A DNA stretch of 64,000 nucleotides, from positions 21,152-85,151 of IMG/VR virus record IMGVR_UViG_3300038417_000475. One strand, written 5' to 3'. Positions 40,046 to 54,944 of the stretch are shown piece by piece. The translations under genes were made by a program, and so were the position numbers. Each line of letters begins with the position of its first letter. The first letter of the stretch is position 1. The notes under the pieces were generated by a model. That model was not told where the DNA came from and made no database searches. It saw only the letters and a program-made list of their open reading frames with translations. Source of the DNA: a virus.

Positions 40046-41041
40046 TTAAGTGAGTTTGGCTATAACTCTCCCGCCCATTTTAGTTATTCCCCTCTTGACC
40101 CTCTGCCCCCTTGATTCTCTCCGGAGTGTAACCGGCTTGGCTGTCAAAATATCCTGCGCCAGTTTTGTAAAATACGGTTTCAATGCGTTCATGTCCGGGG
40201 TCTGGGGAATGGACATCAGAAACGGGATCCCGCAATCCCTGGCCTCTTTTCCCATAGCTAGCTTGGGGGAAAGCAGCTGGTGGCTCACCCTCCCGCAGCT
40301 CGGGCACAAATAGCCGTCCATCATCGAGAGAAGACCGATTATGGGCACTTCCTCGAGCCTCAAAAAGTCGACGGTTCTCCTCATGCCGAGTGCCGAGATT
40401 TCTGACGGTTGGGAGACTATAATCACACCTAGCAGTCCACTTAGGTGCTCAAAAAACGAGAAAACTTCGGATGCAGTTGATGGCGGCATATCCGCCAGAA
40501 GAATCTCCGTGTCATCGGGCCACTGCACCTGTTCCGATAAGAGTTGACGGATGATTGAAGCCCTGTTGGAAACATACGTTTGTTTCAGGTACCAGGCCTG
40601 ATGGTTATACACATCGGCTTCCTGAACGATCTCGAAGGAAGAATGTACGTCGGGATTCTTCTCGAGAAACTCTTTGCATTTCTGTACGATGTCCTGATTG
40701 GCCTTCAGCCAGTTCTGCACCTTCTCCATCACTTCATCGGGGATCTCAACGGTGCCCGTCTCACCCTTCCACATGACGGAATTAGCTTCGCCAAAATGAG
40801 CACAAATCGAGAACAGATAATATCCGTTGATTTCCGGAGGAATGAGCTTGCGTTGTTCCGTTGATGTTTTGATGCGTGGGGGTTCCGAGAGCCCCAACGC
40901 CTTGTGAAGTGTACTGCCGCTCAGGTCGATATCCAGAAATCCGACCCTGTGCCCCATATCGCGTAATGCCAGCCCCAGAAGTGCCGTAACGGTGCTTTTC
41001 CCGACCCCGCCCTTCTGGCTCCAGACCGCGATTTTTTTCAC
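40046..41041 (-). CDS. Mrp/NBP35 (ApbC-like) ATPase
   Basis: SQKGGVGKS, LDIDLSG, DMPP, 'GYLCPSCG'; leaderless GTG 41041. Confidence 0.85.
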   Translation of the reverse strand: MKKIAVWSQKGGVGKSTVTALLGLALRDMGHRVGFLDIDLSGSTLHKALGLSEPPRIKTSTEQRKLIPPEINGYYLFSICAHFGEANSVMWKGETGTVEIPDEVMEKVQNWLKANQDIVQKCKEFLEKNPDVHSSFEIVQEADVYNHQAWYLKQTYVSNRASIIRQLLSEQVQWPDDTEILLADMPPSTASEVFSFFEHLSGLLGVIIVSQPSEISALGMRRTVDFLRLEEVPIIGLLSMMDGYLCPSCGRVSHQLLSPKLAMGKEARDCGIPFLMSIPQTPDMNALKPYFTKLAQDILTAKPVTLRRESRGQRVKRGITKMGGRVIAKLT

Positions 41042-41048
41042 GTTCTTG

Positions 41049-41137
41049 ATTATATGCGCACGTTTCTTACGTTGTAAATGCCCCAAACGCGCACTGCCTC
41101 GCGCTCTATTTACAACGCAATGCGCACGTTTTATAAT
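41049..41137. promoter_or_regulatory. divergent pair of leaderless promoters
   Basis: TTTACA-acg..-TATAAT on both strands (41049-41078 minus; 41109-41137 plus), each 7 nt from a start codon; TGCGCACGTTT in both. Confidence 0.8.
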
Positions 41138-41144
41138 CCGATTT

Positions 41145-41390
41145 ATGACAATAGAAAACACTACTGAAACCCAGCCTGAAACCCCGGCAGCAGATGTCCC
41201 ATCGGAAGTCTATCGTTTGACTGTGGAAATGCCCGAAAAGTACCGTAAAATTCTGAAGACTGCGGCGCAGCAGGCATTTCTCCTGAAGAAGATAGATGAG
41301 CCCTCGGTACACAACGTAATGAACCTCTTCATTAACCTGGGGCTTCAGTATCTGGTGGACGAAGGCCGCAGAGCACAAGGCTACAGATGA
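41145..41390 (+). CDS. small putative DNA-binding (RHH-like) protein
   Basis: 'YRLTVEMPEKYRKILK'. Confidence 0.55.
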   Translation: MTIENTTETQPETPAADVPSEVYRLTVEMPEKYRKILKTAAQQAFLLKKIDEPSVHNVMNLFINLGLQYLVDEGRRAQGYR

Positions 41391-49731: not shown

Positions 49732-51225
49732 TTACTCTTCTAGGAATTTCAACGCCTCGGCCTCAACCGAGCTTTTGGCAATGTGGTCTCGCATTTTGGC
49801 GATATCGCCCTTGTTCCATTGACCTGCCTTGCCGGTTACCTCCTGGAAGAGTTTCTTGATATCTGAGTCGTTTTTACCTATATTTCGCAACGCTACCACA
49901 ATCTCTCGCTTTTCCTCAGGACTAGCTGGGGTGGTGTTTATCTGGCCAGCAGTGCCGGGTTGAAGCGCCCCATCTACCTGGGACGCCGGCGCAGTCTCTG
50001 GGGGCTTCTTCTTTTCCTCAGCCCGCCTCTTCCCCTCATCTTCAATGGCATGCTTGAGGAGTATGGTCTGGGAGAGGTCCATCTGTTTGTAGTCAGTGTG
50101 ACCGAAGAGCTGCATCATCTTGGGGAGAACGAAGGCCTCCCAACTCCCCTCGCCGAGCAGATCCTTGGCCAGCATAAAGAGGTCGATCTCCTTCAGGGGT
50201 TCACCTACTGCCCCAGCCTGTTGCCTCTTGGCAGCCTCCTCGAGTGCTGTGGCAGCCGGCCCAGGGGGATGTTGGTCTGTCGACGCAGCTCCGCCCGGTA
50301 GCCGTTTCTTCTCATCCCTTCTTGTCCTCTTGGGAGCGGTTGTTGGTGTTTTCTTCCCTTCGCTGCTTGTTGCCCCTGTTTTCGTATCCTGGAACTCTTC
50401 AACAGGCGGCTCGTCTTCATCACCGAAGCTGCCCCGAAGATCGCCGGGTACCTCTTCCTTAACAGCTTCTTCCGCTGTCTGAGCTACAGGTTGCTCAAGC
50501 AGGAATTGCCTGCTGGGGTTAGCGATTATGCGCAGCAAATCACCCAGCTTGAGTTCATTCTTCAGATGCATGATCCAGACGGTCTTTCTCTTCTGCCCGG
50601 GCGGGTTCACTTCCTGGGGCCCTATTGCTAATGTAAAAGGAATCATGGCGATCTGGCGAACGCCGGTTACCCGCTCGGCCATAATCCTCACCATAGCGAT
50701 TTGAGACTGGATGTTTATGCGTGAATGGTAGGATGTCGTCGCGACTTCATAAACGCCCAGGCCGGGCACCTCGGGCAGCATAAATTGGAGCCGCATGATA
50801 GGCCGGCACCTCTTTTTCAAGAACTGTTCGCATCTCTCCGGATTGCAGGTAAGCCCGTCTTTCCATACCCAATGGCCTTCAACGGTATTCCGGTCTGCCA
50901 TAGCGCCTGTGTCCACATCTACCTTCTGCTTGGCAATTATCCCGTCTCCGAAGCAGGTCAGCCCATAGGTCAGCCCGTAGCACCTGTAATACTGGCTCAG
51001 CCACTCAAGATCATTGTTGCTGGGGAACATAATGGGGTAGATCGCGGTGGGCTTTTCCCCATAGACCTTCCGGACTGCTTCTGGGCAGACGAGGTAATCG
51101 ACGGCTTTGGGAATGGTCGCGGTGGGATCATCTGGGAGACGGGGATTCTGGACTCTGATACCGAGGCGGATTCTATCGATGCGCTCAAGACGGACAAGGT
51201 TAGAGAAACCATCAATAGGTGACAT
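49732..51225 (-). CDS. Gp3/RDF-like recombination (annealing) protein
   Basis: 'IRLG..YGEKP..CFGDG..C..C..RLQFMLP..GVYEVATTS..S'. Confidence 0.7.
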   Translation of the reverse strand: MSPIDGFSNLVRLERIDRIRLGIRVQNPRLPDDPTATIPKAVDYLVCPEAVRKVYGEKPTAIYPIMFPSNNDLEWLSQYYRCYGLTYGLTCFGDGIIAKQKVDVDTGAMADRNTVEGHWVWKDGLTCNPERCEQFLKKRCRPIMRLQFMLPEVPGLGVYEVATTSYHSRINIQSQIAMVRIMAERVTGVRQIAMIPFTLAIGPQEVNPPGQKRKTVWIMHLKNELKLGDLLRIIANPSRQFLLEQPVAQTAEEAVKEEVPGDLRGSFGDEDEPPVEEFQDTKTGATSSEGKKTPTTAPKRTRRDEKKRLPGGAASTDQHPPGPAATALEEAAKRQQAGAVGEPLKEIDLFMLAKDLLGEGSWEAFVLPKMMQLFGHTDYKQMDLSQTILLKHAIEDEGKRRAEEKKKPPETAPASQVDGALQPGTAGQINTTPASPEEKREIVVALRNIGKNDSDIKKLFQEVTGKAGQWNKGDIAKMRDHIAKSSVEAEALKFLEE

Positions 51226-51255
51226 AGGACCTTCCCCCCTTATTGAAGATTTGGA

Positions 51256-51504
51256 TTATGAAGTTGGAGCTTCAACAGGCTCCGCTTGCGCCGGCTCCCA
51301 GCCCTCACCCTCCGACAGTTTAAGGGCGGCGATGGTGAGCTCGAGGCTTTCGATGGCCTTCTCTTTGGTTGTGCCCGGTTTAATCATAATGGCGGCAAGC
51401 GGACCAACGACGAGATTTAGTTCACCATGGAAACCCTGGGCGATGAGCTGTCTGGGGAAATAGCCGGTTCCTGCGATTTTGTTGACGGTGATTTTGAACA
51501 GCAC
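51256..51504 (-). CDS. small putative regulator (AbrB-like)
   Basis: 'GTGYFPRQL'; leaderless after extended -10. Confidence 0.5.
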   Translation of the reverse strand: MLFKITVNKIAGTGYFPRQLIAQGFHGELNLVVGPLAAIMIKPGTTKEKAIESLELTIAALKLSEGEGWEPAQAEPVEAPTS

Positions 51505-51512
51505 AAGTCGCT

Positions 51513-51595
51513 ATTATACCACCCCATCATTTGGTGCTGTCAATAGATATCGTATCAAAAGGCTATTGACAAACTATGATAATTATGCCTACAAT
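51513..51595. promoter_or_regulatory. divergent sigma70 promoters
   Basis: minus: TTGACA 51543-51538, TGgTATAAT; plus: TTGACA 51566, TACAAT 51590. Confidence 0.8.
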
Positions 51596-51607
51596 AGCAA
51601 AGTTTTG

Positions 51608-51690
51608 GGTCGGGTGGGGTATGGCTAGGTGCGGTGTGGGCGGCTGGGCATGGTTTGGTTTGGCATGGTGAGGTAAGGTAAGGAATTTCA
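51608..51690 (+). ncRNA. GGY-NN repeat unit 0 (in 5' leader of RAMP gene)
   Basis: ~14 GGY-NN pentamers ending GGAATTTCA. Confidence 0.75.
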
Positions 51691-51709
51691 CAATAAAGGG
51701 GGGTTAAAC

Positions 51710-52285
51710 ATGGAATTGAAGTTGACACTCAAGGGTCTGGCGCCGGGGCTTTTAATGAATAGTCCAACGGCAATGGTTCCGACGCCCACTTCTGCAAAAG
51801 GGAAACCCAAGCTGTCAGGTCCGGAGGATCAAGCTAAGGAAAGACTGTACATCATGCCTGACAAAAAAACGCTCTATGTTCCTGCAGCGGCGGTCAGGGC
51901 AAGTATTCTGGCAGCGGGCAGGGGCTATACTGTGAAGGGGCCGTCAGGCCGGCGCGGATCTGCGGGGGTTACACTGGCCGCCTCGATTCTCCTTGGAGAG
52001 CCGAATTTCCCTCTCCTGAACGAGAAAGGCAAGCCTCTGACGATAAAGGATTACACGGTGGATGCCCGAAGAGTGGTGGTTCAACGGTCCGGAATTATTA
52101 GAGGAAGGCCGTTGATATTTCCCTGGATGCTAGAGTGCGTGTTTCCTTATTTCGCCAATCTTGAGCAGGAGACCATAGAGGCTATGGTCAAGGATGCTGG
52201 CTCTATCGCCGGGCTTTTGGATTTCCGCCCGCAAAAATCCGGTTGGTTCGGACGTTTTGAACTTGTCGAGATGAAGATTGAATGA
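51710..52285 (+). CDS. stand-alone RAMP/Cas7-like RNA-binding protein (VIPR-like effector)
   Basis: beta1 'LKLTLKGLAPGLLM', 'LYVPAAAVRASI', C-terminal Gly-rich loop 'AGLLDFRPQKSGWFGRF'; flanked by arrays. Confidence 0.75.
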   Translation: MELKLTLKGLAPGLLMNSPTAMVPTPTSAKGKPKLSGPEDQAKERLYIMPDKKTLYVPAAAVRASILAAGRGYTVKGPSGRRGSAGVTLAASILLGEPNFPLLNEKGKPLTIKDYTVDARRVVVQRSGIIRGRPLIFPWMLECVFPYFANLEQETIEAMVKDAGSIAGLLDFRPQKSGWFGRFELVEMKIE

Positions 52286-52291
52286 TATCCA

Positions 52292-52870
52292 GGCGAGGTT
52301 GGGTGCGGTAAGGTGAGGCGCGGTAAGGCAAGGTGAGGATTTCATTGATCTTCGGTGGGGTGAGGTCTGGTGAGGCTAGGTTAGGTGCGGCGAGCTGTGG
52401 CGTGGTAAGGTTTGGTGAGGAATTTCATTGACCCAGAGTTGCGGTGAGGCCTGGTAGGGTGTGGCCCGGTAGAGCTCGGTACGGTGTGGTGGGGTAAGGT
52501 GAGGAATTCATTCTGGTATAGGTGAAGGCTAGGTACGGTCGCGTTGGGTGTGGGGTTAGGTAAGGAATCTTGAGACTTCGGTGTGGTTCGGTGAGGCCAG
52601 GCATGGCGAAGTTTGGTTGGGTCAGGTAAGGTGAGGATTTCATTGACCTGTGGTCGGGTCTGGCCTGGTCAGGTGATGTCGGGCCTGGTGGGGTCAGGCA
52701 AGGTCTGGTGAGGATTTGCTGAATGATAGGCTCGGTCGGGTTTGGCAGGGCTAGATGAGGTGAGGTCGGGTCAGGTCCGGTACGGTGAGGTTTGGTAAGG
52801 GATTTCATCATGATTTCATTCTGGTGGCACGGTGGGGCCGGGCGAGGTTGGGTGCGGTAAGGTAAGGTCT
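52292..52870 (+). ncRNA. array of eight GGY-NN units with conserved GGA(A)TTTCATTGA-like tails (putative guide RNAs)
   Basis: strict 5-nt periodicity, variable dinucleotides, units start ~52292, 52354, 52438, 52515, 52580, 52652, 52729, 52823. Confidence 0.85.
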
Positions 52871-52887
52871 AATTTAAGGGGGTGTTT

Positions 52888-53577
52888 ATGCAGCAGATGG
52901 TATCGGTGGCCAGGCTAGTCGAAGATTTCGACATTTATCCGCGAACGCAGGTCGATGATTACAATGTGGCTGCCATCGCGGAGGCGCTCAGGGCGGGGAA
53001 CCAGGTGCCCCCTCTGAAAGTCGGGCAGGTCGCCGGGCACAAGACAAGAACGTTTCTCATTGTGGATGGTGTCCACCGGAGCCGGGCATACCGCAGAGTT
53101 TTCGGAGATAATGTCAAGGTTCCAGTGGTCACCCAGGTCTATAAGGACAAGAATCAGATGATACTCGAAGCGGCTGAGGCCAACTCTCACCATGGCAGGA
53201 TCCTCACCATGCAGGACAAGACCAAGTGTGTCATCATGCTGGAGAAAGCCAAATACCCGATCGCCCAGATTTCGAAGGCCCTGGGCTTAACGGCAGAGAA
53301 AATCGCTTTATTAAAGGCGGAGAGAACAGCCACCCGGGGCGGGCAATCCGTGGCGTTGAAACTGTCCACAAGCCACTTGGCCGGCATGGACCTGACGAAG
53401 GAACAGATGAGATATCAGGAGGCAGCCGGAGGCCTCCACCAGAGCTTCTATGTCAACCAGGTCATTTCAATGTTGGAGGCGGATGCGGTCGATTGGGATA
53501 ATGAAAAGCTGGTGGCTCTTCTGGGCAAGCTCGCACAGCTGCTCAGCGAGAAAGAGAAGCTGTTATCACCAGCATGA
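52888..53577 (+). CDS. ParB/Srx-domain protein with HTH
   Basis: 'IYPR', 'PPLKV', 'IVDGVHRSRAY', 'N..HG..L'. Confidence 0.85.
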   Translation: MQQMVSVARLVEDFDIYPRTQVDDYNVAAIAEALRAGNQVPPLKVGQVAGHKTRTFLIVDGVHRSRAYRRVFGDNVKVPVVTQVYKDKNQMILEAAEANSHHGRILTMQDKTKCVIMLEKAKYPIAQISKALGLTAEKIALLKAERTATRGGQSVALKLSTSHLAGMDLTKEQMRYQEAAGGLHQSFYVNQVISMLEADAVDWDNEKLVALLGKLAQLLSEKEKLLSPA

Positions 53578-53587
53578 GGAGAAGAAT

Positions 53588-53788
53588 ATGACGAACTGGA
53601 TTCTCGGGCTGCTGGGTCTGCATACTTGTAGGCAGTGTGCCCGATATCACCTGCTCAATACTGTCTCCTGGCCGGCCCAGCAAGGTATTGTCTACGGCAC
53701 ACGGCCAGTGGATGTCACAGCCCTTACCTGCGACGGGAAGATCGTCGACCCCTCGACAGTGAAACGCTGCCGGAGCTTCAAGAAATGA
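53588..53788 (+). CDS. small Cys protein
   Basis: SD GAGGAG, CRQC. Confidence 0.45.
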   Translation: MTNWILGLLGLHTCRQCARYHLLNTVSWPAQQGIVYGTRPVDVTALTCDGKIVDPSTVKRCRSFKK

Positions 53789-54050
53789 CGGGGAACGACA
53801 AGATGAAACGCTTTCTGCTGGCCGCCATCGTGGTAGTAACGACATTGGCAGCCACCTTCGGGATTCTGGTTCTCTTCTGGCGGCTTGTGCCATGATGAAG
53901 AAGCAGTTGAAGCTCTCCGACAACGCCAAGCACTGGGCCAAGGCCACCCTGCTGGCTCTTCTCGCCATGGCCCTCATCTTCGTTATCTTTAGCATCATCT
54001 ACTTCTTTGCTCCAGGCCAATCTTCCCCCGGATGAAAGGATAACATTATC

Positions 54051-54944
54051 ATGAATGACTATCTCCAGAAGCTCTACGACCACTATGAGAGCCGGCTGGC
54101 CTCCAAGGGCTACAATCGAACCCAATACCTGAAATGGGTGCAAGCCTTCCTGGAGTACTGCGAGGGCAGTGACTTCAAAACCGAAGCTAATTTCCAGGAT
54201 GAGGATGCGGTCCGCGCGAAGATTCAGGCCTATTTCATCAAGCTCAAGAGGGGCTACGGTGATGGCTCCCTGGGAACGATCTGGTCCATCCTGCGGGCCT
54301 TCTTCAACCGCAATCACCTCGAATGGCCTTTCGGCAAAGGGGAAGCCCCCTCACAGGCTGAAGACAAGAAACAGCACCCTGCCCTCGACCCTGGCCTGGT
54401 GAATGAGATCATCCTGGCAGTCAGACAAAAGGGCAGCCCGGAAGAGCAGGCTTTTCTGGCCTTGAGCTCTACCTATGGACTCCGCCGCGGAGAGCTTCTG
54501 GCCCTCACTCCTGAGGAATTCAAAATCAAGGACCGTACTATATATGTAGCGACCCTGAAACATGGGCGCGCCCGCAGCCATCTCATTCCTGAAGAGATAG
54601 TGCCCTATCTGGAGGGATATGACTTCAGCCGGAAGATCTCCCGGAGCAGCCTGGCTATCCTGTGGTACAAGATCGAAGACAAGGCGGGGCTGGTCCATTA
54701 TCCGAGGGTGGGCTTCCACAGCATCCGGCGCACGCTGAATACTTGTCTGGAGCAGCATTTCGGTGAGGTTCAAATAAAGACCTTCCTGCGGCATAAGGGC
54801 GGCAGTGACATGACCATGGCGTACACAGCCACCAAGTTCATTACCCGGGAAGGCTCTACCAACAAGCTGGCTGCCGTCTTGAGCGACCTGGACAAGCGGG
54901 TATTTGAAGTCCATCCGTTCCTGCCGGCATGGAGGGAGACATGA
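54051..54944 (+). CDS. tyrosine recombinase/integrase
   Basis: R (YGLRRGE), K, HSIRR, LRH, Y catalytic set. Confidence 0.92.
   Translation: MNDYLQKLYDHYESRLASKGYNRTQYLKWVQAFLEYCEGSDFKTEANFQDEDAVRAKIQAYFIKLKRGYGDGSLGTIWSILRAFFNRNHLEWPFGKGEAPSQAEDKKQHPALDPGLVNEIILAVRQKGSPEEQAFLALSSTYGLRRGELLALTPEEFKIKDRTIYVATLKHGRARSHLIPEEIVPYLEGYDFSRKISRSSLAILWYKIEDKAGLVHYPRVGFHSIRRTLNTCLEQHFGEVQIKTFLRHKGGSDMTMAYTATKFITREGSTNKLAAVLSDLDKRVFEVHPFLPAWRET

What the first reader, a model, noticed from the sequence alone, without database searches (positions are those of the whole stretch)
51608..52870. Stand-alone RAMP/Cas7-like gene embedded in a GGY-NN pentamer array: candidate non-CRISPR RNA-guided system
Seen: nine units (one upstream, eight downstream of 51710-52285), each about 8-14 pentamers of a near-invariant GGY plus a variable dinucleotide; all but the last are closed by a conserved GGA(A)TTTCATTGA-like tail. 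Example unit 5: GGT gt GGT tc GGT ga GGC ca GGC at GGC ga AGT tt GGT tg GGT ca GGT aa GGT ga GGATTTCATTGA. The 191-aa protein has a RAMP-like first strand, an LYVP helix motif and a C-terminal Gly-rich loop (GLLDFRP..GWFGRF). No cas1/2/3/5/6 genes or repeat-spacer array occur in the window. Established: Cas7 RAMPs polymerise on RNA with a fixed nucleotide period. Inference: each subunit grips a GGY and presents the NN, so each unit is a guide spelling a gapped target. This matches my recollection of recently reported viral 'VIPR' systems, which I cannot verify here.
Basis: partly seen in the sequence, partly recalled or inferred. Interest (0 to 1): 0.96.

Follow-up and report, generated by a model that had tools for sequence, protein, structure and literature searches.

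The report
Phage VIPR guide-RNA locus, ParB-like partner
This is a real example of the VIPR system first described in 2026, in which a small Cas7-like protein uses guide RNAs built from five-letter repeats to find DNA; it sits in an 85-kb peat virus, so it is a new member of a known kind.

Summary
Nine units of in-register GGY-NN pentamers flank the 191-aa gene: 102 pentamers, 96 of them GGY, position 3 always a pyrimidine, NN near maximal entropy. No dinucleotide shuffle (0 of 500) comes near this. Eight units end in a GGA(A)TTTCATTGA-like tail.

A profile of the protein's family matches the solved 'SUSP1 Vipr protein' (PDB 36pp, E=3e-19), and the residues that grip GGY are kept. Its model (pLDDT 95.5) resembles Csm3/Cas7. 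This scan has noted VIPR 488 times in at least 366 other genomes.

The host record is a complete 85,151-bp virus from peat, without cas genes or a CRISPR array. All 12 related loci fetched carry same-strand pentamer arrays.

Points specific to this clade:
- The tails are short, about 12 nt, and begin with an in-register GGR pseudo-repeat.
- A ParB/Noc/KorB-fold gene (52882-53577) follows vipr in 10 of 12 related loci. The word ParB is absent from the main text of the three VIPR papers.

No natural target was found: one metagenome match fits chance. Expression could not be tested.

The parts
51566..51595 (+). Sigma-70-type promoter TTGACA-18 nt-TACAAT. It places the transcription start a few bases before the first GGY of vrRNA unit 1.
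   Evidence: 11 of 12 consensus positions and the only promoter-like site in 51200-54100. Shuffles give a mean of 1.6 sites, so the site alone is weak; its position is the argument.
51608..51691 (+). vrRNA unit U1 (upstream unit): GGYNN x6, an irregular 4-nt unit (51638-51641), GGYNN x8, then tail GGAATTTCAC.
51710..52285 (+). vipr gene: a 191-aa Vipr protein (minimal RAMP, Cas7-like). The G-loop is AGSIAGLLDFRPQKSGWFGRF.
   Evidence: family profile against PDB 36pp_D 'SUSP1 Vipr protein', E=3e-19 over the full length; pairwise alignment puts R133/D171/F172/R173 opposite SUSP1 R138/D177/W178/R179. AF2 pLDDT 95.5; top folds are Csm3/Cas7; phrog_4652, E=4.6e-9; 938 representatives at E<=1e-3.
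52292..52348 (+). vrRNA unit U2: 9 GGYNN plus tail GGATTTCATTGA.
52354..52431 (+). vrRNA unit U3: 13 pentamers (one is GCT) plus tail GGAATTTCATTGA.
52443..52513 (+). vrRNA unit U4: 12 pentamers (one is AGC) plus tail GGAATTCATTC.
52515..52575 (+). vrRNA unit U5, degenerate: 9 pentamers interrupted by 1-2-nt insertions, with a divergent tail GGAATCTTGAGA. Probably a decaying unit.
52580..52646 (+). vrRNA unit U6: 11 pentamers (one is AGT) plus tail GGATTTCATTGA.
   Evidence: In one of four runs laid, a single contig of depth 3.27 carries a G>A change at 52615.
52652..52723 (+). vrRNA unit U7: 12 pentamers (one is TGT) plus tail GGATTTGCTGAA.
52729..52821 (+). vrRNA unit U8: 14 pentamers (one is GAT) plus a tail with an internal duplication, GGGATTTCATCATGATTTCATTC.
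52823..52868 (+). vrRNA unit U9: 1+7 pentamers and no tail. Positions 52838-52867 are 93% identical to 52289-52318 (the start of U2). It runs into the ribosome-binding site of the next gene.
52882..53577 (+). Candidate vap (Vipr-accessory) gene: a 229-231-aa protein with a ParB/Srx N-domain and helical DNA-binding domains of ParB/Noc/KorB type. Invariant motifs are YPR, DGxHR and N..HG.
   Evidence: phrog_1033 'ParB-like partition protein', E=7.7e-8; a homologue lies just downstream of vipr in 10 of 12 related loci; alignment A4; profile against PDB ParB family protein 7o0n, E=4.2e-5, and Noc, E=3e-4. Pfam ParB_N in 6 of 9 members, all below the curated cut-off. AF2 pLDDT 89.4; the top folds are Noc, CDP-bound ParB and the RK2 repressor.

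Best explanation
The locus is a VIPR (Viral Interference Programmable Repeat) system carried by a complete 85-kb peat virus.

How it most likely works:
1. One promoter (51566-51595) drives a transcript through vrRNA unit 1, vipr, vrRNA units 2-9 and a ParB-fold accessory gene. This step is inferred.
2. By homology with the solved SUSP1 system, one Vipr protomer binds each GGYNN repeat. The thumb and G-loop hold G1, G2 and Y3, and the two N bases face outward.
3. An in-register GGR pseudo-repeat followed by TTTCATTGA closes each unit. It probably ends the protein filament, because the Y pocket excludes purines. The 1-11-nt linkers between units would be trimmed by host RNases, giving RNAs of about 57-93 nt. 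This step is inferred.
4. Each ribonucleoprotein reads double-stranded DNA by the published one-base-skip rule (xNN xNN ...). It forms a gapped R-loop and blocks transcription of the matching gene, most likely in a rival virus, satellite or prophage of the same unknown host.
5. The ParB/KorB-like partner assists at the DNA, in a way not yet known.

Shown here: the homology, the fold, the array anatomy and the conserved synteny. Taken from the papers: the binding mode and the skip rule. Inferred: transcription, processing, the GGR stop and the identity of the targets.
For: Protein:
- The family profile (86 sequences) matches PDB 36pp 'SUSP1 Vipr protein' at E=3e-19 over the full length.
- R133, D171, F172 and R173 lie opposite SUSP1 R138, D177, W178 and R179. 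These are the residues the cryo-EM paper says hold G1/G2/Y3, with R138A and D177A abolishing silencing. R133 is invariant; D171 and R173 are kept in 90% or more of the 86 sequences.
- AF2 pLDDT is 95.5. The Foldseek top hits are Csm3/Cas7 of type III-A and type VII complexes, E about 1e-4, TM about 0.5.

Arrays:
- 96 of 102 pentamers are GGY and NN entropy is about 1.9 bits; 0 of 500 shuffles come near.
- Unit sizes of 9-14 repeats fall within the published 9-16.
- One unit lies upstream and the rest downstream, as in SUSP1.

Context:
- The record is a virus with 127-bp terminal repeats, rated 100% complete.
- No cas genes and no CRISPR-like repeats.

Relatives:
- 12 of 12 related loci have same-strand pentamer arrays beside vipr: 11 of GGY type and 1 of AGC-NN type.
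- About 10 of these are distinct, because L008/L009 and L006/L108 look like the same elements.

Other points:
- A GGR pentamer follows the last GGY repeat in 35 of 61 runs over 10 loci, and in 8 of 9 in the window. About 3% would be expected by chance; that figure is my own arithmetic.
- The paper lists GGY>GGA among its GGY substitutions (fig. S12 legend) and says that perturbing GGY abolished silencing.
- No self-target exceeds a shuffled-NN null in the virus's own genome. The paper reports the same for its systems.
Against: - No RNA run holds the locus, so transcription and processing are unseen here.
- No convincing natural target was found.
- The pairwise match to SUSP1 Vipr on its own is weak (E=0.096). 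The homology rests on the profile.
- The tail is about 12 nt and has no consistent predicted fold, unlike the 40-60-nt pseudoknot tail of the SUSP1 clade, so how filament capping and processing work here is unknown.
- U5 is degenerate, U9 lacks a tail, and U1 has a 4-nt unit, so not all nine units need be functional.
- SUSP1 H17 lies opposite an Asn here. That is read from the profile alignment, not from a direct pairwise alignment.
Confidence: 0.9

Rival explanations
1. It is a VIPR system, but it is aimed at host genes or at the virus's own gene programme (a regulator) rather than at rival mobile elements.
For: The only high match found, for U3 (20 of 20 seed bases; 22-23 of 26 overall), lies in a cellular-looking racemase-type gene, beside genes that also look cellular, on five JGI contigs (reading these ORFs as cellular and racemase-like is mine from the translations, no search was run). 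No viral target was found in IMG/VR for U4, U6, U7 or U8.
Against: That match is one distinct sequence, where about one chance hit is expected at 20 specified bases in a collection of that size (my estimate). Its skipped base falls on codon position 1, not the wobble position. No other guide exceeds its null on those contigs, apart from a borderline U7 match of 19 of 24. No self-target exists in the virus's own genome. In the paper most natural targets are satellites or prophages.
Confidence: 0.12
2. The pentamer tracts are DNA-level sites (centromere-like or iteron repeats) bound by the neighbouring ParB-like protein for partition or replication of the element. On this view they are not RNA guides.
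For: A ParB-fold gene lies directly after the array. The element has replication genes nearby.
Against: Arrays accompany vipr even where the ParB-like gene is absent (L001 LESphi2 and L004). They are always on the vipr strand. Only 3 of 5 positions are fixed and NN is near-random, which does not suit a sequence-specific protein site. The same repeat type is shown experimentally to be RNA bound by Vipr. The 'ParA-like' gene at 40046-41161 is a NUBPL/Mrp-type P-loop protein 11 kb away, not a partition partner.
Confidence: 0.03
3. It is a decaying, non-functional VIPR remnant.
For: U5 is broken by indels, U9 has no tail and duplicates U2, U1 has a 4-nt unit, and five units each hold one non-GGY pentamer.
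Against: The ORF is intact with all family-invariant residues. A near-consensus promoter stands in front. Three units (U2, U3 and U6) keep the consensus tail, U4 differs from it by one missing T, and U7 and U8 have variant tails. Wherever the contigs of the four peat/wetland runs laid cover the array it is the same, apart from one base in one contig. The paper notes frequent internal degeneracy in working vrRNAs.
Confidence: 0.05

Closest known systems
VIPR systems, with type II as the experimental reference (Escherichia phage SUSP1 and a Pseudomonas fulva prophage): bioRxiv 10.64898/2026.04.26.720920, .720927 and 10.64898/2026.10.15.759431
   Same: A homologous Vipr protein with the same GGY-contact residues. 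vrRNA genes of 9-16 GGYNN repeats with variable NN and a fixed 3' end. One unit upstream of vipr and the rest downstream. A two-gene locus in a virus. No cas genes and no CRISPR array.
   Different: The tail is about 12 nt (GGA(A)TTTCATTGA) with no predicted pseudoknot, against a structured tail of about 40-60 nt. There are nine units packed 1-11 nt apart, against four. The accessory gene has a ParB/Noc/KorB fold, not vap1; the LESphi2 relative of the P. fulva kind has an unrelated 163-aa gene there. Vipr shares only a profile-level match with SUSP1 Vipr. Which of the paper's types I-VII this clade is cannot be told from the text I could read, because figures and supplements were not available.
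Cas7/Csm3 backbone subunits of class 1 CRISPR-Cas effector complexes (for example 6IFN and 7UZW)
   Same: An RRM-based RAMP fold with a thumb and a glycine-rich loop. One protomer binds per fixed RNA period, and a base is flipped out at each period.
   Different: The period is 5 nt, not 6. The guide information is non-contiguous. There is no repeat-spacer array, no Cas1/Cas2/Cas5/Cas6 and no second RAMP.
ParB/Noc/KorB family (ParB-CTPase fold plus a helix-turn-helix DNA-binding domain)
   Same: The accessory protein's model aligns best with Noc, CDP-bound ParB and the RK2 repressor. It keeps YPR, DGxHR and N..HG motifs, at the places where I recall ParB boxes I-III.
   Different: It scores below Pfam's ParB_N cut-off (14.7 bits against 26.3). 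No ParA partner lies adjacent. It is syntenic with vipr rather than with partition genes. Nucleotide binding is untested.

Membership tests
VIPR (Vipr + vrRNA) | A Vipr protein: a minimal RAMP (RRM core, thumb, G-loop) homologous to characterised Vipr | tested here: met
   PDB 36pp SUSP1 Vipr, E=3e-19, profile positions 2-182 of 184; pLDDT 95.5; Csm3/Cas7 top hits.
VIPR (Vipr + vrRNA) | Residues that hold the GGY bases (SUSP1 R138, D177, W178, R179; paper .720927 section 5) | tested here: met
   One search aligns R133, D171, F172 (an aromatic in place of Trp) and R173. R133 is invariant, and D171 and R173 are kept in 90% or more of 86 family members. H17 is an Asn here, read from the profile alignment.
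VIPR (Vipr + vrRNA) | vrRNA genes: 9-16 tandem YNNGG/GGYNN repeats, GGY conserved and NN hypervariable, flanking vipr on its strand | tested here: met
   Seven units have 9-14 regular repeats; U5 is degenerate and U9 is short.
VIPR (Vipr + vrRNA) | A conserved 3' tail after each repeat tract | tested here: met
   8 of 9 units end in a GGA(A)TTTCATTGA-like tail.
VIPR type II (SUSP1 clade) | A structured tail of about 40-60 nt with a pseudoknot, and a vap1 accessory gene | tested here: not met
   The tail is about 12 nt and units follow 1-11 nt later. Folds of the 3' regions are inconsistent, from 0 to -7 kcal/mol. The accessory gene has a ParB fold.
VIPR (Vipr + vrRNA) | A minimal locus without cas genes or a CRISPR array, usually in a virus or provirus | tested here: met
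VIPR (Vipr + vrRNA) | An accessory (vap) gene with a predicted DNA-interacting function next to vipr | tested here: met
   (10 of 12 related loci).
VIPR (Vipr + vrRNA) | vrRNAs are expressed, processed to under 100 nt and bound by Vipr | not testable with these tools
   No RNA run is listed for the locus; only DNA contigs could be laid.
VIPR (Vipr + vrRNA) | Natural DNA targets that match the guides by the one-base-skip rule (80% NN or more) | tested here: inconclusive
   One distinct match (U3, 22-23 of 26) fits chance and is out of wobble register. Nothing was found for U4, U6, U7 or U8 in the collections searched.
VIPR types I-VII | Place in the Vipr tree plus vrRNA architecture and vap class, as in the paper's Fig. 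5A, fig. S16 and data S4 | not testable with these tools
   Figures are not held and supplements are closed. The text says only that types II, VI and VII have DNA-binding vaps.
Class 1 CRISPR-Cas | A repeat-spacer array plus cas1/cas2 and further Cas subunits | tested here: not met
   no match in the whole 85-kb record.
ParABS partition system (for the accessory gene) | ParB scoring above the family threshold, with an adjacent ParA ATPase and parS sites | tested here: not met
   ParB_N scores 14.7 bits against a cut-off of 26.3. The only 'ParA' hit is a NUBPL-type protein 11 kb away.

The most novel reading that the evidence does not exclude
In this VIPR clade the conserved ParB/Noc/KorB-fold partner is a nucleotide-gated DNA clamp or spreader. 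The Vipr-vrRNA filament recruits or loads it at the guide-specified site, so that a 30-40-bp roadblock becomes long-range silencing of a rival element. The in-register GGR pseudo-repeat that opens the short tail acts as a 'stop repeat' that sets the filament length without a pseudoknot cap. Neither idea is in the main text of the VIPR papers I could read: the word ParB occurs 0 times in all three.
Probability: 0.2. Interest if true: 0.7.

Novelty: new member of a known kind. Interest (0 to 1): 0.35.

Why it matters
VIPR is a months-old class of RNA-guided DNA recognition, and so far only type II systems (SUSP1 and P. fulva) have been studied at the bench.

This locus adds a well-preserved example from an uncultured, unusual 85-kb peat virus. 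It has nine tightly packed guides, a minimal 12-nt tail and a ParB-fold partner that is conserved across the clade.

If the short tail and the GGR stop suffice for assembly, guide RNAs could be designed smaller than at present. If the ParB-like partner spreads from the VIPR site, that would link two silencing principles.

As a discovery of the system itself it adds nothing new. The class is in print, and this scan has met it hundreds of times.

Tried and rejected
Tools that saw nothing
- Tandem Repeats Finder does not see the period-5 array; it reports only two weak period-15 rows. With 3 of 5 positions fixed, the array falls below its threshold.
- Rfam at E<=1 gives no match in 51400-53000, so there is no hammerhead between units.
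- The terminator scan gives 4 sites against a shuffle mean of 2.6, none of them between units.

Tail folding
- The 30-nt 3' regions fold inconsistently, from 0 to -7 kcal/mol. A small GGUGA/UCAUU hairpin forms in only some units. I did not pursue it.

Target search by the one-base-skip rule
- Own genome: no guide beats a shuffled-NN null.
- IMG/VR, U8: 24 specified bases give 0 hits; 18 bases give 0.
- IMG/VR, U7: a 16-base seed gives 96 hits. 80 loci were returned and examined, and 16 were not seen. The best extension is 5 of 8, which is chance.
- IMG/VR, U4: a 16-base seed gives 1 hit, extension 1 of 8.
- IMG/VR, U6: a 16-base seed gives 8 hits, extension 2 of 6 or fewer.
- JGI metagenomes, U3: a 20-base seed hits 5 contigs carrying one distinct sequence, inside a 246-aa ORF that I read as racemase-like from its translation (no search was run). 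The three tail-side NN match 2-3 of 6, and the skip base falls on codon position 1. I treat this as chance.
- On three of those contigs U7 matches 19 of 24 bases, 300 nt away on the same strand. On two it only equals the best of 50 shuffles; on the third (L114) it beats them by one base (19 against 18).
- U8 with up to 3 mismatches of 24: 0 of 3 MAGs and 0 of 401 genomes sampled from the phylum of the Acidobacteriota MAG. That means not found in those searched.
- U1, U2 and U9 were not searched outside the virus's own genome. The host is unknown.

Other analyses
- Do the NN look like codon positions 1-2? The log-likelihoods are -281.3 (p12), -278.5 (p23 reverse complement) and -285.3 (genome). 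This is inconclusive.
- Complex prediction of Vipr with the ParB-like protein: no answer, score 0.00. This is no evidence either way.
- Sequencing runs: no RNA holder is listed. Contigs of four DNA runs show the array unchanged wherever they cover it, apart from one base.
A single-protein scan of IMG/VR found none.
- VIPR type I-VII could not be assigned. The figures and supplements of 10.64898/2026.04.26.720920 (Fig. 5A, figs S16-S21, data S3-S4) may already show this clade, its vap and its tail.

What I read of each paper
- .720920: outline; sections 4, 10, 18, 20, 26, 27 and 35; passages.
- .720927: outline with abstract; sections 5 and 6; passages.
- .759431: outline with abstract; passages.
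- 10.64898/2026.10.21.760802: passages only.
- Recalled and not from any call: the ParB box I-III names, and that ParB, Noc and KorB are CTP-dependent clamps.
Full report
WHAT IS THERE

The stretch 51566-53577 holds, all on the + strand:
- a near-consensus sigma-70-type promoter, TTGACA-18-TACAAT at 51566-51595, matching 11 of 12 positions;
- one pentamer-repeat unit;
- a 191-aa ORF at 51710-52285;
- eight more pentamer-repeat units;
- a 231-aa ORF at 52882-53577.

A register-aware parse gives 102 pentamers, of which 96 are GGY. Position 3 is always a pyrimidine (T 77, C 25). The two following bases have 1.94 and 1.86 bits of entropy.

Units hold 9-14 repeats, with these exceptions:
- U1 has 6+8 repeats around one 4-nt unit.
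- U5 is broken by small insertions.
- U9 has 8 repeats and no tail.

Eight of the nine units end in a GGA(A)TTTCATTGA-like tail. The next unit starts 1-11 nt later.

The signal is far from chance. The longest exact GGY runs are 8 and 9, against at most 4 in 500 dinucleotide shuffles. Pentamers lying in runs number 14 and 75, against at most 4. In the whole 85-kb genome, dense period-5 GG tracts occur only here and only on this strand.

Period 5 excludes coding. The 128-aa minus-strand ORF across the array is therefore an artefact.

THE PROTEIN

- Pfam finds nothing; PHROGs gives phrog_4652, of unknown function, at E=4.6e-9.
- A full HMMER search finds 938 representatives at E<=1e-3, nearly all 170-250 aa long.
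- A profile of 86 of these matches one PDB sequence only: 36pp 'SUSP1 Vipr protein', E=3e-19, end to end. The single sequence reaches only E=0.096.
- In that pairwise alignment R133, D171, F172 and R173 stand opposite SUSP1 R138, D177, W178 and R179. The cryo-EM preprint names these as the residues holding G1, G2 and Y3, and reports that the R138A and D177A mutants lose silencing.
- R133 is invariant; D171 and R173 are kept in 90% or more of the 86 sequences.
- The AlphaFold model is confident: pLDDT 95.5, pTM 0.90.
- Its best structural matches are Csm3/Cas7 subunits of type III-A and type VII CRISPR complexes, at E about 1e-4 and TM about 0.5. The structure library used ends in April 2026 and does not hold the Vipr entry.

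THE LITERATURE

VIPR systems are described in:
- bioRxiv 10.64898/2026.04.26.720920 (discovery, skip rule, seven types);
- bioRxiv 10.64898/2026.04.26.720927 (cryo-EM);
- bioRxiv 10.64898/2026.10.15.759431 (satellite conflict);
- bioRxiv 10.64898/2026.10.21.760802, which recovers them again (99 period-5 clusters).

The defining features given there are:
- a minimal RAMP, Vipr;
- vrRNAs of 9-16 YNNGG repeats with fixed GGY and variable NN, followed by an invariable tail;
- a vap accessory gene;
- a viral context;
- recognition of double-stranded DNA in which each NN pairs and one target base is skipped.

All the features that sequence alone can show are met here; see the membership table.

CONTEXT

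- The window is bases 21152-85151 of an IMG/VR virus record of 85,151 bp with 127-bp direct terminal repeats, rated 100% complete.
- It occurs in at least 24 peat or wetland metagenome runs. None of them is RNA.
- Wherever the contigs of the four runs laid cover the array, it is the same apart from one base in one low-depth contig.
- Cas1, Cas2, Cas5d, Cas6 and Pfam RAMPs are not found. No 16-mer recurs three times.

RELATIVES

I fetched 12 related loci:
- Pseudomonas phage LESphi2;
- eight IMG/VR contigs;
- three MAG contigs, from Verrucomicrobia, Burkholderiales and Acidobacteriota.

L008/L009 and L006/L108 look like the same elements. I judge this from identical tract spacing and identical ORF starts. 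About 10 loci are therefore independent.

All 12 carry pentamer arrays on the vipr strand beside the gene. Eleven are of GGY type. The Acidobacteriota MAG has AGC-NN instead.

Array anatomy in the relatives with the ParB-like gene resembles the window: short tails, close packing and semi-fixed last repeats.

THE PARTNER GENE

- A homologue of 52882-53577 lies directly after vipr in 7 of the 9 phage or IMG/VR loci and in 3 of 3 MAG loci. Some vrRNA units often lie in between. It is absent in LESphi2 and L004.
- Nine of these proteins align with invariant YPR, DGxHR and N..HG motifs.
- Their profile reaches ParB family protein 7o0n at E=4.2e-5 and Noc at E=3e-4.
- Pfam ParB_N is hit by 6 of 9 members, always below the cut-off.
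- The model (pLDDT 89.4) aligns best with Noc, CDP-bound ParB and the RK2 repressor complex, at E from 6e-8 to 7e-7.
- The only 'ParA' in the window is a NUBPL/Mrp-type P-loop protein 11 kb away, so a partition role is unlikely.
- The word ParB does not occur in the main text of the three VIPR papers. Their figures and supplements, which I could not see, may still show such a vap.

THE GGR START OF THE TAIL

- In the window, 8 of 9 repeat runs are followed in register by GGA or GGG. Over 10 loci the count is 35 of 61.
- L009, L108 and L109 were left out of that count, as duplicates or as the AGC type.
- Chance expectation is about 3% by my arithmetic.
- The cryo-EM paper says the Y pocket sterically excludes purines. 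The discovery paper lists GGY>GGA among its GGY substitutions (fig. S12 legend) and says that perturbing GGY abolished silencing.
- I therefore infer that the GGR pseudo-repeat ends the filament.
- In some relatives (L003, L006, L107) arrays end in GGTtt plus a T-run instead, so this is not universal.

TARGETS

I found none that I trust. The full list of searches is under Tried and rejected.
- Own genome: nothing above a shuffled-NN null. The authors report the same for their systems.
- IMG/VR seeds for U4, U6, U7 and U8 gave either nothing or hits whose remaining NN match at chance level.
- A 20-base seed of U3 hit five JGI contigs that carry one and the same sequence, inside what looks from its translation like a cellular racemase-type gene. 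Overall 22-23 of 26 bases match, which passes the paper's 80% line.
- I still read the U3 match as chance, for three reasons. About one chance hit is expected at that seed length. The skipped base falls on codon position 1. No second guide clearly converges there.
- U8 was not found in 3 MAGs or in 401 genomes sampled from one phylum.

VERDICT

This is a genuine and well-preserved VIPR locus.

It is a new member of a known kind, not a new kind. This scan has already noted VIPR 488 times in at least 366 genomes.

The points worth a specialist's glance are:
- the conserved ParB/Noc/KorB-fold partner;
- the 12-nt tail opened by a GGR pseudo-repeat;
- the AGC-NN variant in a relative;
- the odd host virus.

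Noticed in passing
L109:3930-3985 and L109:4568-4635 (Acidobacteriota MAG contig CAWATU010000001.1): A Vipr homologue (29% identity) with the same ParB-like partner is flanked by pentamers of AGC-NN (some GGC-NN) instead of GGY-NN. This is a non-canonical repeat unit. The preprints mention such variants in general (YNNNG; WGT/NN, GAC/NN). In the passages I read, AGC/NN is not named.
   Followed up: partly
window 51504-51605 (run X16, contig record 7): One peat contig shares the promoter region, with 9 differences, and then departs at 51605, exactly where vrRNA unit 1 begins. It continues into an unrelated sequence with a ribosome-binding site and an ATG. This looks like a sister virus in which another gene takes the place of the VIPR cassette at the same promoter. 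Only 30 letters of the loose end were shown.
   Followed up: no
window 52289-52318 and 52838-52867: The start of U2 and most of U9 are 93% identical over 30 nt, so the downstream array is bracketed by a direct repeat. This may be a trace of unit duplication, or a substrate for array loss or gain by recombination.
   Followed up: partly
L001:1730-2040 (Pseudomonas phage vB_Pae_LESphi2, OQ594955.1, beside cI/cro): This phage, from the cystic-fibrosis lung strain LESB58, carries a Vipr homologue annotated 'hypothetical protein'. Three GGC-NN vrRNA units with long structured tails lie upstream, next to the lysogeny switch. It is a VIPR of the P. fulva kind.
   Followed up: partly
L112:4452-4489 (JGI contig Ga0315286_10000733) and four sister contigs: U3's first ten NN match perfectly inside a 246-aa ORF that I read as Asp/Glu-racemase-like from its translation (no search was run). 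A 19-of-24 match to U7 lies 300 nt away on the same strand in three of the five contigs. I judged this chance, but it is the only lead to a target.
   Followed up: partly
L006 (IMG/VR UViG_3300033417_000040) and L108 (Burkholderiales MAG DASWLD010000016.1): Tract spacing and ORF starts are identical, so the IMG/VR 'virus' and the MAG contig look like the same element. That would make Burkholderiales the host of that relative.
   Followed up: no
window 40046-41161: The gene that PHROGs calls 'ParA-like partition protein' is, by Pfam, a NUBPL/Mrp-type iron-sulfur P-loop NTPase (E=2.8e-40). It sits at the end of the lipid operon noted by others, and it is not a partition gene.
   Followed up: partly
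window 19933-43059: Of ten large ORFs scanned against PHROGs, none matched a head, tail, portal or terminase family. This agrees with earlier notes that the virus has no recognisable tailed-phage particle genes.
   Followed up: no
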